A stretch of 58,221 bases of DNA from Mizuhopecten yessoensis (lineage: Eukaryota), in NCBI RefSeq assembly GCF_002113885.1, contig NW_018408872.1, positions 111,739 through 169,959 on the forward strand, read 5' to 3'. Position numbers: made by a program. This document shows positions 52,967-58,221 of this stretch, one piece after another (position 1 is the first letter of the stretch; the number at the start of each line of letters is the position of its first letter).

Positions 52967-55900
52967 GACCTTAAAGTCCAGGTAAGCATCTAGTGGCTCG
53001 GCGTTGAACATTTTGAATTAAATCAATATGTTTGTATTTATTTGGATACCAGACTGCACTTGCATAATCAAATTTGCGACCGACAAAAAAAATGTATAAA
53101 GGTATTAATATATTTATGTCCATCAAATGAAAGGTTCTTCTTAGCATGTCACACATTGAGTTGGCTTTCTTCACTTTTTTCGCTTATGTGATTTTCAAAA
53201 TTTAGGTCTCACTAGTTGTAGTTAGTAGTTCTGTATCATTAAGTTTATATGTGACACGATAACTCTCTATAGTGCATGTGTTTGCGCTTATCGTGGTGCA
53301 TTTTCATAAGCCAATCCTCAATCCACTAGCACATGCTATCCAGGTCTCGTTGCAATATCTTTGAATCTTCATCCTTGCATGGTTATTACTTTAAAAACTT
53401 TAGTATCAATGAATAATTTAGGAAAACAGAAAAAAAGCTAGGTGGAGTATCTATGATTATAAAAAAATAATTTACTTCATTCAGAGACATATAAAGCCAT
53501 AGTATGTATGTCTCTGGTCGCTTTAACATGGCTTTTAAAAACATAATTACAACTGACCACGTATGTACGTACGTGAATTCGGTGACTTCGTGTGTCAAAA
53601 TAGTAAACGTACGAGTCACTGTGGTGTCAGGTATTAGATCAACGCTCACATAATGAATTGTTCGTTAACTTTTATCAATAATATTGCATGCAAAGAATAT
53701 TACAAGCAAAGAAAAGGCAATGCCCCGGAATGGTGACAGTACCCATTGCCTTCCTCACCTTGAAGAACGTTCAACATTAACAAAACCAAAAGCGAGGTAT
53801 TGCAAAGTGAGGTACAATCTTTCAGCTTTAAATCACAGTTACTAACCTCGTCTGTCAATCATATTATGGGTATATTGACAGACGAGGCTAGTACCTGTGT
53901 TTAAATTGGGAGTCGGCGCTATTATATAACTGAATTATGCAATAGTGTCGTACTGTTCAATGTTAGGTGATAAAAGATGTACACTGAACCTGGGCAATTA
54001 GGAAATGCATGGCCAGATAATGGTCAGATAATGACCAGACTTGACATTTGACGTAAAAAGTCCTGTGTGATCAAAAGGATAAATACACGACACAAGTGCG
54101 CGAATGTAGGAACTTTAGTGTTTTATTGATTACCAAATGATAACGATAGTGTAGCAGGTGTGTATTAAATTAAGTTGTTTCCGTATTATTTTATTCAAAG
54201 ATTAAAACGGATACTTTTAACGACATGAGCCTAGCAGTGCTGTGTGAGCTTTAGATAAAACGGCATTTCACCGAGATACTGTTTTGCCAATCCTCGAAAT
54301 TCCAGGGGTTACGCTACGTTATCTGCACTCTTGGAAAATGTAATAAAAAATTGAAGGCTCTTTACGAACCACCTTGTCGATAGGTCAAGATTTTCAAAAA
54401 CAGATGCTTTTTCCAATAATAGCTTTTGATAAAACGTGATCTGAGATTTAGAACAGACTAATAAAAAATGAAATTCGTCCTCTACTTCAGAGGGGGAGTT
54501 ACACTGTTTACAATATCTACGTTCTCTAGGTATATTATTATACCTTCCAACTTCTACAGCCAAAGAATGTGTAGATGGACGGATTCGAGTTAAACAAATG
54601 CGATATTTCATTGGTATATATACTTTGTGAGGTAAAATTGTAATGATTCTCCAAAATCAATGATATTTTTATGCAATAAACATTTTGGAGATTTTTCCAC
54701 TGAGGCCCTTAGGAATTGTATGCCTTGATAAAAAATTCTTTGTTTTATCAATGGTAATAACACATTTTGCTGAGAAATACATGGATTATTTACCATCCAT
54801 ATTAATCCTGATACACCAAACATCACTAAAACATAGATTATTCAATTCATCTGTTACTGCTTTAGACCAGTTGAAATCATTTTTACTACAATATTTTAAT
54901 AAAAATCTATAGGAAGTGGATATGATACAATTTTCAGAATTTAAGATCTTAAACCAATATTTCATCATTTTACTTTTCTCATCCAAACTAGAGGTAATCG
55001 TCCCAATTCAAGATATACCATGTTGTTATTGGCCGATTTCTTCACTTTTAGATTTTTTTTCACAAAAATGTAAATGTACATGTTCAATCTGCATACACCA
55101 AATTTCACTTGCATTTTTTTTTTTAATTTGTGAATATATTGTGATATAACATTCCCGCATAATGTTTAGCATTGTACCAGTCAATGTACGTTAGAAAATA
55201 TAACAACAGATATTATATGTACAATTACCTTTTTTAAGCTATTATCGTTACTGTTGACACATGATAACAGGCACGGGATGTGATTGAAATTAAGAAAAGC
55301 AGAAGGCTGTGTGTGTATAGATTATGAATATTACTAACGCCGTCACGCGCAGGAAAATCACACACGCGATCTCAAGTAAACCCTTAGAATACATATTTCG
55401 TAAATTATACGTTGGTGTCCCTAATCCTATCCCTACCTCTTTTGCTGTAACCCCATCTTTAACTTTAAAATGTTCCAGGCTATTGGGTGACACATTAAGT
55501 TTGTGCATATATTTATTTGTTACGGAAAGGACGTAAGTAAGTTCAAATAATTTTGTCCAATCCATTTGTCCTTTGTCACAATAAAAATATTTAAACTAAA
55601 CTACATATTTTATTTCACATTCGTCACCAAATCTGGCCGCTTTTCANTATTTGTACTCTCCCAAGGGAGAGTGGGCCGTTCCCGGAGGTACTGCAATACC
55701 GGGCCAACCCGTGGCAAGAGCGGAGCAAGCCCCTGACATCTCACCTAAGTCCAAAAATCAGTTTAATATCGAAGTACCCCGGTGGGGTACGTATCAGATA
55801 TTAAGCTGATAAGAACAGATACTACACTTTGATCTTAGCCAAAAGGCCGAGAAGCGATACCAAATAAGATTTAGAAATACATTATAAAGTAATCATTAAA

Positions 55901-58221
55901 CTTTCTAATACGGGTGAGATGTCGATTAGAATATAGCACAGTAAATGCTTCAAAACCCTGTAGTTCTTCATTACAATAGTAACCAGGTAAAAATATTGGA
56001 TATCTCATTATATTATTGATAATGTTGCCAGCTTATTTTTTATATAAACAAGTATGATTTGCTATAATATGCGTTTCAGCGTCTACAGTTTCCATAATCT
56101 CTCCACTACTGACGTTATTGAGTTATCTCCCATGAACATGAACATAGAGGTGTGCTGCGGAGTTATTAGGTCATAGGAGTGTATTGATAAACGGAAGTAG
56201 GAAGTACATCCCTAGTTGAAAGTCCAATGTAGGGAGACAGTATAACAATTTCCGCATATTCTAATGTTTAATAATAAACTGATGAATTTTGTATGTTTAT
56301 TATTGACAGAATAGTGTGTTCTCTCAATATTAAAGTATTTCAAAGCAATCCAGGCATTAATTCAGTTATTTTTTATCAATGAGTCAAATGTGTCCATTTT
56401 TCTGTACTTCATGAAACCGGTTACCTATTTCACTACTGTGAAGTTTTTCAAGAAATATAACTCTTCCATGCAATTACTATGTGTATATGGTTTTATTATA
56501 AAGCGTCAATTTTTGTTCGTTTATAGATAATTTATTTTACACAATTTCAGCGTTTATTAAATTGATATACATTAATGCAATACTAATCTATGGAAGTATA
56601 AAATTTATAGACATCATTTTGCAAAGAATTGTGTCTTTCGGGTTTTTTTCAAAATTCACTCCTTTTTACATAAATTTTTATTTAAAATCCTTAAAATTCT
56701 GACAACCTATATTTTTTTTTGTGGCAGAACATTTTCTTTACTTCAAAGCAATAAAACTACAAAATTTGAAGAAAATCTACTGAGAAATGGTGACACAATC
56801 CTATTACCTTAATCGGATCAAGCAGGGATGTGTACACATTTAAGATGTTGCATTATGGTTGACTACATACACTGATACAGGGACATTTATAAATAGTTAG
56901 ACTACGTTAGAGTGATTCCAACACCCATTGCCCTTGTACATATGAACCACTAATGGAACTGATGTATTGATATTGATAATTTTATGCCAAATGTATTTGC
57001 GCAATTCTAATTCGTTAAGGGAAATAATTTGCTAAACGAAATAATAATTCAAAAAGTAGATCCACTTATTCTTTGTTGGAAATCAATATTTGAATCAGCA
57101 ACAACAACAGCAACAAAAATATTTTAAATCGGAATAACAGTTAATAAAAATAAAGAAAAACAATCTAACTTTATGAGAGAGAAAAAAGGAGAAAAAAAAA
57201 GAAAAAAACCTAATGTTGGATCAATCTGAAGTAACCTAAATATTAAGATATTTGTACAGAAGGGTTATTTGAATAACTAATCATATGCAATACATTAAAT
57301 ATGTATATATGTATGTATATGGCAGCAATTATAATGATAAAAAAGTAATATTCATAGGTGAAAGACATGACTCCGATACCACGCATGGACTTATGTTAAT
57401 GGGAGATAACCCAAGAACCACAGTAGATGAGAGATTATGGAAACTGTAGACGCTGAAACGCATATTAGGTAGGGATATGATTAGGGACACCAACGTATAA
57501 TTTACGAAATATGTATTCTAAGGGTTTACTTGAGATCGCGTGTGTGATTTTCCTGCGCGTGACGGCGTTAGTAATATTCATAATCTATACACACACAGCC
57601 TTCTGCTTTTCTTAATTTCAATCACATCCCGTGCCTGTTATCATGTGTCAACAGTAACGATAATAGCTTAAAAAAGGTAATTGTACATATAATATCTGAA
57701 AAGTATATGCTACTTTATACATTTCAAACATATTTAGACATCAAATATGACATTAGAAGAACCGCTGCTAAAAATGTTGTGATTTTGGGCATATAGAAAA
57801 AGTGGTCGTTTTTGGTGGCGAATGTGATCAAAATAATGAATCCCGAATTCGTTCTTATCGCAAGATTTTTTCCATCGCAAAATAACACGCTTGTTGCTTT
57901 GTTTATATTCCAGATGTTAATATCAGATGAAAGAGAAACGTTGCACGTTTCAAAATGTCAATCAATGATGACAACCTGTTCCGTCGGTGGAAGGAGTGTA
58001 AACAGGATAACAAAGTCCACAAACTGTACATCGTATGGATGTATAGCACATTACACAAACTATTGACCTATATTCACTTTAACATGCTACGCGTATGAAG
58101 AAAAAAAACCCAAAAAGCATTGATAGTTATGTTTAAACAATGTATTCAATATACAGATGCCGAATATAAGTTTATCATGCATACCTTCTGTGTAATAGTC
58201 ATGAGGCAAAAAAGTGAGAAA

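What the first reader, a model, noticed from the sequence alone, without database searches (positions are those of the whole stretch)
55207..57698. U2 snRNA gene mirrored by an inverted copy of its locus that lacks the U2 gene
Seen: the left side reads A(55207-55438)-[626 bp with U2 and PSE]-B(56065-56139). The right side is the reverse complement of A joined directly to B, with a 1-nt overlap at 57467. A is 231/232 identical. The 39 nt of B nearest the junction, which hold the SPH-like motif, are identical; identity then falls to about 80% and fades. Inference: an old divergent U2 gene pair was homogenised by gene conversion up to the distal promoter element, and one member then lost its U2 body and PSE. 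Alternative: a foldback element carrying a U2 gene, although no TSD is visible at 55207/57698. The arms could also let the U2 cassette invert.
Basis: partly seen in the sequence, partly recalled or inferred. Interest (0 to 1): 0.65.

Follow-up and report, generated by a model that had tools for sequence, protein, structure and literature searches.

The report
U2 gene beside gene-less mirror copy
A normal-looking U2 splicing-RNA gene in a scallop genome lies 2 kb from a recent mirror-image copy of its own flanking DNA that skips the gene itself, most likely an ordinary by-product of DNA break repair and not a new kind of element.

Summary
A full-length U2 snRNA gene sits at 55666-55858 on the minus strand (Rfam 188 bits). 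A PSE-like motif lies at -42..-59. The gene sits in a 626-bp block between segment A (55207-55438) and segment B (56065-56139). On the right, reverse-complemented B and A are joined directly, with a 1-nt overlap at 57467. A matches 231 of 232. The first 39 nt of B match 39 of 39, the next 36 nt match 29 of 36, and homology then stops. No U2 remnant lies on the right.

The "SPH-like" label is not supported: 6 mismatches to the STAF consensus is background level. No octamer is present either.

The inner boundary is graded and the outer boundary is sharp. This fits a recent one-ended copy from left to right that was primed in an older, about 20% diverged homology and ended by a non-homologous junction. 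The U2 block was either skipped by a template switch or deleted straight afterwards.

A borderline mirrored match of the U2 3' flank lies at 57798-57835 (reached by 2 of 400 shuffles). It hints at an older U2 unit on the right.

The window comes from a pectinid scallop, not a human. Genome-wide copy number, long reads and orthologous loci could not be checked. This is an ordinary rearrangement of modest interest.

The parts
55666..55858 (-). U2 snRNA gene, full length and canonical
   Evidence: Rfam RF00004, 188.3 bits, model 1-192 of 192, E 3.8e-40. The branch-point-pairing box and the Sm-site stretch are present in the cmscan alignment.
55900..55917 (-). PSE-like core promoter motif, -42..-59 from the U2 start
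   Evidence: It matches 10 of the 12 specified positions of the PSE consensus quoted in PMC5493778. It is the only site in the window within 3 mismatches of this 18-mer. The window holds 49 sites with <=2 mismatches to the consensus on its two strands, about 1 per 2.4 kb per strand. By my arithmetic, a site at the right place and strand has a chance of about 0.01.
55439..56064 (-). 626-bp block present only in the left copy (promoter-proximal 206 bp, U2, 227 bp of 3' flank)
   Evidence: It has no other copy in the window. It holds one masked N at 55647, which was left untouched.
55207..55438 (.). Arm A, left copy (3' of the U2 unit)
   Evidence: It matches the reverse complement of 57467-57698 at 231 of 232. 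There is no Rfam, tRNA or Pfam signal and no unusual fold: z = 0.47, and 135 of 200 shuffles fold at least as well.
56065..56103 (.). B inner 39 nt (-207..-245 of U2), recent layer
   Evidence: It matches the reverse complement of 57429-57467 at 39 of 39.
56104..56139 (.). B outer 36 nt, older layer
   Evidence: It matches the reverse complement of 57393-57428 at 29 of 36, in register with the identical tract.
56140..57392 (.). Unique spacer between the two B copies
   Evidence: It has no significant self-complementarity or homology. Gapped alignments score within the range of shuffles, and the only ORFs are short ones with nothing known.
57393..57467 (.). B' (mirror of B): an old 36 nt followed by a recent 39 nt
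57467..57698 (.). A' (mirror of A), joined to B' with a 1-nt overlap at 57467
57699..57797 (.). 99 nt of unknown origin between A' and the possible 3'-flank relic
   Evidence: It shows no significant similarity to the U2 block (38 of 400 shuffles reach the score). Against the rest of the window, 4 of 30 shuffles (plus strand) and 1 of 30 (minus strand) reach the score.
57798..57835 (+). Possible relic (F') of a U2 3' flank, mirrored match to 55606-55644
   Evidence: It matches at 30 of 38 aligned positions and contains a shared 17-mer matching at 16 of 17, which occurs nowhere else in the window. The alignment score of 19 is reached by 2 of 400 dinucleotide shuffles, and the wrong orientation scores 12. 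Under a more permissive scoring scheme it was not above shuffles.
54336..55112 (-). Context: 5'-truncated, frame-broken non-LTR retrotransposon 3' part, ending at most 95 bp from the outer edge of arm A
   Evidence: In tblastn, 17 of 17 long hit proteins map here and nowhere else in the window. RVT_1 is present in 7 of the 7 proteins scanned, and 1 of the 7 also carries the endonuclease domain. The similarity does not extend into A.

Best explanation
A functional-looking U2 snRNA gene of a pectinid scallop lies on the minus strand. About 1.25 kb from its upstream region sits a short, older, roughly 20% diverged mirror-image homology (B' outer). This may be the remains of an old inverted duplicate of the U2 unit.

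Recently a break or stalled fork on the right side was repaired by copying from the left unit. Synthesis was primed inside the old homology and copied the last 39 nt of B. It then switched template at a single shared base, from 56065 to 55438, and so skipped the 626 bp that hold the PSE, U2 and its 3' flank. It copied the 232 nt of A and was sealed to unrelated DNA at 57698/57699 by end joining.

The product has no core promoter and no RNA body, so it is an inert by-product. Its one consequence is a 232-bp inverted repeat matching at 231 of 232, which can invert the 2,014-bp segment carrying the U2 gene.

Shown: the geometry, the two identity layers, the 1-nt junction, the absence of U2 and PSE on the right, and the sharp outer edge against the graded inner edge.

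Inferred: the direction (left to right), the one-event template switch, and the old U2 duplicate.
For: - The recent tract matches 270 of 271 and the adjacent in-register older tract 29 of 36 (Fisher p 1.3e-6).
- The inner boundary is graded, which fits homology-primed synthesis. The outer boundary at 55207/57698 drops from 100% to random level (15 of 60) with no older homology outside it. That is the signature of a one-ended copy closed by a non-homologous junction.
- The two donor segments lie 626 bp apart in the left copy. They are joined with 1 nt of microhomology, and there is no splice-site-like or TSD-like feature.
- The donor is nearby and inverted. By the listings and abstracts seen, this is the usual setting for template-switch rearrangements (PMC7954356, PMC11293582, PMC11724301).
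- Copying from right to left would need two separate tracts flanking the U2 block.
- A and B are single-copy in the window.
- The layered divergence and the unique 1.25-kb spacer argue against a fold-back read artefact.
Against: - Nothing here distinguishes a one-step skip from a full copy followed quickly by a 626-bp deletion. Both give the same sequence.
- Only 36 nt of old homology remain to prime the event, which is little for strand invasion.
- If the 57798-57835 relic is real, the 99 nt before it should look like the 3' part of U2. They do not (38 of 400 shuffles reach the score; no Rfam hit).
- Polarity (loss against gain of the 626 bp) is argued from parsimony alone, without an outgroup.
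- No reads, second haplotype or related genome could be consulted.
Confidence: 0.4

Rival explanations
1. An old head-to-head U2 pair existed. The whole left unit (B inner, promoter, U2, 3' flank, A) was copied or converted onto the right member. Shortly afterwards one arm of the resulting inverted repeat of about 0.9 kb lost 626 bp through an end-joining deletion with 1 nt of microhomology.
For: It gives the same final sequence as the best explanation. Long near-perfect inverted repeats are known to be deletion-prone (established knowledge, recalled). The possible 3'-flank relic at 57798-57835 (2 of 400 shuffles) has about the same identity (30 of 38) as B outer (29 of 36), as expected if both are leftovers of one old U2 unit.
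Against: It needs two independent events inside a time that allowed only 1 substitution in 271 nt. No intermediate is seen. No U2 remnant of the old right-hand gene is detectable. The tract boundary does not coincide with a recognisable distal promoter element.
Confidence: 0.3
2. Insertion instead of loss. The contiguous A|B arrangement on the right is the ancestral state of an inverted duplicate. The 626-bp self-contained U2 minigene (PSE, gene, 3' flank) was captured at a break in the left copy, for example from an extrachromosomal fragment of another U2 locus or array.
For: The block carries what a minimal snRNA gene needs: a PSE-like motif at -42..-59 and the full gene. Its ends show only a 1-nt ambiguity, as in end-joining capture. 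B holds no recognisable distal promoter motif that would tie it to U2. [quoted passage not shown] It cites Marz et al. 2008, of which only the reference entry was seen.
Against: It does not explain why the whole of A is in the recent layer, up to a sharp outer edge, while only the B side shows an old layer. It needs conversion on both sides of a 626-bp heterology. If the mirrored 3'-flank relic outside A' is real, U2-flank homology already existed on the right. No known mechanism is documented here.
Confidence: 0.12
3. Assembly artefact. The right-hand B'-A' segment or its junction is a chimeric join, for example of a deletion-bearing haplotype or a mis-oriented read.
For: The structure lies within 3 kb of the window's end. 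Bivalve genomes are highly heterozygous (general knowledge, recalled). No read evidence was available.
Against: Fold-back artefacts give perfect palindromes with little or no spacer that run to the contig end. Here there is a unique 1,253-bp spacer, a 523-bp unique right flank, an older 29-of-36 layer in register and a non-contiguous join. That combination is hard to produce by misassembly.
Confidence: 0.08
4. The whole of 55207-57698 is a foldback-type mobile element with 232-bp terminal inverted repeats that carries a U2 gene. Alternatively, A is a dispersed repeat that inserted twice.
For: The terminal inverted arms match at 231 of 232. A truncated retrotransposon lies next to the left arm.
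Against: There is no target-site duplication at 55206/57699. A and B have no other copy in 58 kb. A shows no retrotransposon or Pfam similarity. B' continues the homology inward beyond the arm, which independent insertions of A would not give.
Confidence: 0.05

Closest known systems
Template-switch / microhomology-mediated replicative repair products (MMBIR or FoSTeS-type inverted duplications and templated insertions)
   Same: A nearby inverted donor, non-contiguous donor pieces joined with 1 nt of microhomology, and one homology-primed end with one non-homologous end. The mechanisms are as described in the listings and abstracts of PMC7954356, PMC11293582 and PMC11724301.
   Different: Those cases are mostly human, great-ape or yeast events seen as fresh mutations. 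This one is a fixed or assembled state in a scallop, and no intermediate or parental allele is available.
Palindromes kept >99% identical by arm-to-arm gene conversion (e.g. primate X-chromosome palindromes, PMC8981503, listing and abstract only)
   Same: Inverted arms match at 231 of 232, are separated by a unique spacer, and could invert that spacer.
   Different: The arms here are only 232 bp long, against kilobases or more. One arm lacks the gene. Ongoing conversion is not shown, and a single recent copying event suffices.
Multicopy U2 gene families evolving in concert (human tandem RNU2 array; passages of PMC5493778, listing of PMC9138887)
   Same: A U2 unit with a PSE-type promoter, and a paralogous copy homogenised with it.
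   Different: This is not a tandem array. There is only one gene, and the partner holds flanks only.
snRNA pseudogenes and LINE-snRNA chimeric retrocopies
   Same: A gene-less or dead partner of an snRNA gene, with a LINE fragment on the same strand downstream.
   Different: The partner lacks the RNA body altogether, where a pseudogene would keep a mutated one. U2 is 553 bp from the first detectable LINE residue and has a PSE-like motif upstream, so it is not a retrocopy.
Foldback transposons / MITEs
   Same: Long terminal inverted arms.
   Different: No TSD, and no further copies in the window. The homology is layered and continues inward past the arm.

Membership tests
U2 spliceosomal RNA (Rfam RF00004) | Covariance-model score above the gathering score over the full model | tested here: met
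   188.3 bits against 46, model 1-192 of 192, at 55666-55858 on the minus strand.
U2 spliceosomal RNA (Rfam RF00004) | A second (mirror) U2 body on the right side | tested here: not met
   No U2 hit other than the gene itself at E<=10 in 54000-58221, both strands.
Pol II snRNA-type gene unit (as defined for vertebrates: DSE, PSE, 3' box) | PSE about 55 bp upstream | tested here: met
   10 of 12 specified consensus positions at -42..-59. The site is unique in the window.
Pol II snRNA-type gene unit (as defined for vertebrates: DSE, PSE, 3' box) | Distal element with an octamer and/or a STAF (SPH) site about 200-250 bp upstream | tested here: not met
   No octamer with <=1 mismatch in 55859-56467. 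The best STAF-like sites in B have 6 mismatches, which is background (1141 such sites in the window). Mollusc distal elements are unknown to me, so this does not exclude a lineage-specific enhancer.
Pol II snRNA-type gene unit (as defined for vertebrates: DSE, PSE, 3' box) | 3' box 9-19 nt after the RNA end | tested here: inconclusive
   The best matches to the vertebrate consensus have 4 mismatches. The stretch holds the masked N at 55647.
Foldback element / MITE | Target-site duplication flanking the inverted termini | tested here: not met
   The flanks at 55206 and 57699 differ.
Foldback element / MITE | Multiple dispersed copies | not testable with these tools
   None in the 58-kb window. 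No eukaryotic genome collection was on hand.
Palindrome maintained by gene conversion | Arms near-identical while the flanks are unrelated | tested here: met
   231 of 232 in the arms. The flanks are at random level.
Palindrome maintained by gene conversion | Repeated conversion shown by comparison with orthologous arms | not testable with these tools
   No related genome was available.
Template-switch (MMBIR-type) rearrangement | Junction of non-contiguous nearby donor segments with 0-few nt of microhomology, in inverted orientation | tested here: met
   55438 and 56065 are joined at 57467 with 1 shared base.
Template-switch (MMBIR-type) rearrangement | Formed in one event (no full-copy intermediate) | not testable with these tools
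   This needs population or outgroup data.
LINE-snRNA chimeric retrocopy | snRNA fused directly to a LINE 3' part, with no upstream promoter | tested here: not met
   There are 553 bp between the U2 3' end (55666) and the first LINE-like residue (55112). A PSE-like motif lies upstream.

The most novel reading that the evidence does not exclude
The 626-bp block is a self-contained, DNA-level mobile U2 minigene, and the mirrored A|B junction is its preserved empty site. The locus would then record how promoter-bearing snRNA genes relocate, by capture or excision at breaks with about 1 nt of junction homology. That would explain why snRNA genes lose synteny like mobile elements.
Probability: 0.1. 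Interest if true: 0.65.

Novelty: new member of a known kind. Interest (0 to 1): 0.3.

Why it matters
If the reading is right, the locus is a clean natural example of layered turnover at an snRNA gene. It shows an old inverted duplicate, a recent templated patch that misses the gene, and a resulting 232-bp inverted repeat that can flip an active U2 gene.

It matters mainly as an annotation caution: a mirror of U2 flanks is not a second U2 gene. It is also a small data point on how snRNA gene copies are born and lost in molluscs, where promoter elements and gene organisation are poorly described.

It does not open a new question by itself.

Tried and rejected
- Rfam at E<=10 over 54000-58221 gave 6 rows. 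These were U2, a weak Giardia-U2 overlap on the same gene, and 4 chance-level rows (E 7.4-9.6). Nothing fell in A, B or the right copy.
- ARAGORN found only one tRNA-Val, at 46.8 kb.
- Arm A folded as single-stranded DNA gave z = 0.47, and 135 of 200 shuffles fold at least as well. There is no special structure.
- Pfam scans of ORFs across A, A' and the flanks found nothing above the cut-offs.
- Older homology was sought by gapped alignment in three places: between B and the centre, outside A, and beyond 57835. None scored above shuffles.
- A target-site duplication for the neighbouring LINE fragment was sought. Only one 8-mer was shared, which is not convincing.
- Extension of the LINE into arm A was tested. 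No consistent similarity appeared.
- Splicing-type removal of the 626 bp was considered. The borders carry no GT-AG or CT-AC (reading).
- The TTTGCT hexamer occurs at both ends of the block (reading). This was judged a chance match and is not a retained microhomology.
- The STAF, octamer and 3'-box consensus scans were negative.
- The protein word search for longer relatives of the LINE ORF gave 0 hits among 44 candidates. The exhaustive search then found 4817.
- The literature searches found no description of a mirrored gene-less U2 locus or of scallop U2 gene organisation. These cover only the held library.
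Full report
**What is there**

The window is eukaryotic and AT-rich (34.5% G+C). I take it for a pectinid scallop, not for human. A stop-to-stop ORF at 22399-22746 (minus strand) matches a mitochondrial ribosomal protein L32 of Mizuhopecten yessoensis at 96% identity. It matches those of Pecten maximus, Ylistrum balloti and Argopecten irradians at 74, 67 and 64%. 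These were 4 proteins at E<=0.001 among 10 candidates. Protein pieces were searched one ORF or exon at a time.

Rfam finds one family above its gathering score in the whole window. It is a full-length U2 snRNA at 55666-55858 on the minus strand: 188.3 bits, model positions 1-192 of 192. The branch-point-pairing box and the Sm-site stretch are intact in the alignment.

**Check of the observation**

- A (55207-55438) is the reverse complement of 57467-57698 at 231 of 232 positions.
- B (56065-56139) mirrors 57393-57467. It matches 39 of 39 next to the junction and then 29 of 36. Beyond that the in-register match is random.
- Between A and B on the left lie 626 bp. On the right the two are fused, and base 57467 is shared.
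- The two identity layers differ significantly: 1 mismatch in 271 against 7 in 36, Fisher p 1.3e-6.
- The pair is the longest inverted repeat in the window and the only near-identical one. The 8 inverted pairs unrelated to this locus, of the 10 listed, are 74-80% complementary and belong to a dispersed repeat family.
- A, B, the 626-bp block and the spacer have no other copy in the 58 kb.

**Promoter labels**

I used the consensus motifs printed in the figure 1 legend of PMC5493778 (passages read).
- PSE. The 626-bp block holds a PSE-like site at 55900-55917 (minus strand), -42..-59 from the U2 start. It matches 10 of the 12 specified positions. The window holds 49 sites of that quality or better on its two strands. 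A site at the right place and strand therefore has a chance of roughly 0.01 by my arithmetic.
- SPH. The 'SPH-like' motif is not supported. The site in the identical 39 nt (56088-56106) misses 6 of 18 specified positions, and 1141 window sites do as well.
- Octamer. None with <=1 mismatch lies between 55859 and 56467.
- 3' box. The vertebrate consensus is not matched after the gene; the best site has 4 mismatches. That stretch holds a masked N at 55647, which I left alone.
- So B cannot be called a distal promoter element on this evidence. A lineage-specific element is not excluded.

**Right-hand copy and flanks**

No U2 remnant is found on the right at E<=10, and no second PSE-like site.

Gapped alignments find no older homology between B and the centre of the structure, or outside A. 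A has no RNA-family, tRNA, Pfam or structural signal. There is no target-site duplication at 55206/57699.

Left of A lies the 3' part of a non-LTR retrotransposon, on the minus strand at 54336-55112.
- A search of 1.84 billion representatives with its 115-aa ORF gave 4817 hits at E<=0.001.
- I used 17 of the 154 stored proteins, those of 280 aa or more. All 17 map to this stretch and nowhere else in the window.
- 7 of the 7 proteins scanned carry RVT_1.
- The element is 5'-truncated and frame-broken. It ends at most 95 bp from A. It shows no similarity inside A and no clear TSD.

**A possible older relic**

The best match of the 626-bp block to the right outer flank lies in the mirrored orientation. 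It joins 55606-55644, which is 22-60 nt after the U2 end, to 57798-57835. It matches at 30 of 38 aligned positions and includes a 17-mer matching at 16 of 17 that has no other copy in the window.

With blastn-like scoring, the score of 19 is reached by 2 of 400 dinucleotide shuffles, and the wrong orientation scores 12. With a more permissive gap scoring it was not above shuffles. I treat it as suggestive.

Its identity is close to that of B outer (29 of 36), as expected if both are leftovers of one old inverted U2 unit of about 534 bp. Against this, the 99 nt between A' and the relic should then resemble the 3' part of U2, and they do not (38 of 400 shuffles reach the score). Nothing beyond the relic is homologous either (303 of 400 shuffles).

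**How it most likely arose**

The recent tract has a graded inner end, going from 100% to about 80% to nothing. Its outer end is abrupt, going from 100% to random with no older layer. That asymmetry is what a one-ended copying event leaves: synthesis primed within pre-existing diverged homology (B') and closed at the far end by non-homologous joining.

The two donor pieces lie 626 bp apart in the left copy and are joined at one shared base. Two routes give this result.
- The polymerase switched template in the same event. This is my preferred reading, at 0.4.
- The whole unit was copied and one arm of the resulting inverted repeat of about 0.9 kb then lost 626 bp by end joining.

The sequence cannot separate the two. 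Direction left to right is inferred because the reverse would need two separate tracts around the U2 block.

The remaining rivals are as follows.
- Insertion of a U2 minigene into an ancestral A|B site (0.12). This explains the layering and the possible relic less well.
- Misassembly (0.08). The unique spacer, the unique right flank and the old layer in register argue against it.
- A foldback or dispersed mobile element (0.05). It has no positive support.

**Consequences**

The right copy has no core promoter and no RNA body, so it should be silent. The 232-bp arms can mediate inversion of the 2,014 bp between them. That would simply mirror the locus.

**Comparison with what is known**

The structure works like template-switch or replicative-repair products with microhomology junctions (PMC7954356, PMC11293582, PMC11724301; listings and abstract starts only). 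On a much smaller scale it resembles palindromes homogenised arm to arm (PMC8981503, listing and abstract start).

It is not a tandem U2 array, not a pseudogene with a decayed RNA body, not a LINE-snRNA chimera and not a demonstrable foldback element (see the membership table).

[quoted passage not shown] I saw Marz et al. 2008 only as a reference entry there, and its content is recalled.

PMC4758252 (passages) describes scallop SINEs of about 520 bp. Their sequences are in figures and supplements that I could not see, so arm A was not compared with them.

My six literature searches found no description of this kind of locus or of scallop U2 gene organisation in the held library.

**What stayed unchecked**

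No eukaryotic genome, read set or second haplotype was available. Four things therefore remain open: the genome-wide copy number of A, B and the block; the state of the orthologous locus; read support for the junctions; and the orientation polymorphism.

**Verdict**

This is a real, well-defined but ordinary rearrangement product at a scallop U2 gene. Interest is 0.3.

Noticed in passing
window 54336-55112 (minus strand): 5'-truncated, frame-broken 3' part of an APE/RT-type non-LTR retrotransposon. Its last detectable residue lies at most 95 bp from the outer edge of arm A. It is on the same strand as U2.
   Followed up: yes
window 55881-55887 (minus strand, -23..-29 of U2): A TATA-like heptamer lies downstream of the PSE-like motif. 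In vertebrates, PSE plus TATA marks Pol III snRNA genes (passage of PMC5493778). In a 65% A+T genome this may be chance, or a lineage-specific Pol II arrangement.
   Followed up: no
window 55419-55438 and mirror 57467-57486: The inner end of arm A, right at the junction, reads like degenerate telomere-type hexamers (CCCTAA-like units). This was seen by eye only and not tested against chance.
   Followed up: no
window 17953-19471 and 47253-48048: Two minisatellite arrays, one with a 35-bp period and one with a 20/23-bp period.
   Followed up: no
window 14561-14781 and 33974-36498: A dispersed repeat family with several direct and inverted copies at 60-87% identity.
   Followed up: no
window 30750-31790: An array of repeats with a period of about 157 bp, just upstream of a proteasome-subunit-like exon at about 31.9-32.1 kb.
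   Followed up: no
window 46824-46900 (plus strand): ARAGORN calls a tRNA-Val (CAC). It lies about 190 bp from an ORF with the start of an RRM domain at 46102-46635 on the minus strand.
   Followed up: no
window 14908-15709 (plus strand): ORFs that look by eye like a second retroelement of a different family. They have no Pfam hit, and the retrotransposon proteins used do not hit them.
   Followed up: partly
window 57955-58098 (plus strand): A short ATG-started ORF lies about 260 bp right of arm A'. It might be the first exon of a gene whose upstream region now holds the B'-A' copy. It was not searched.
   Followed up: no
window 11940, 23884, 24120, 24437, 25117, 55647: Six single-base N positions. 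The one at 55647 lies 19 nt after the U2 3' end. All were left as they are.
   Followed up: no
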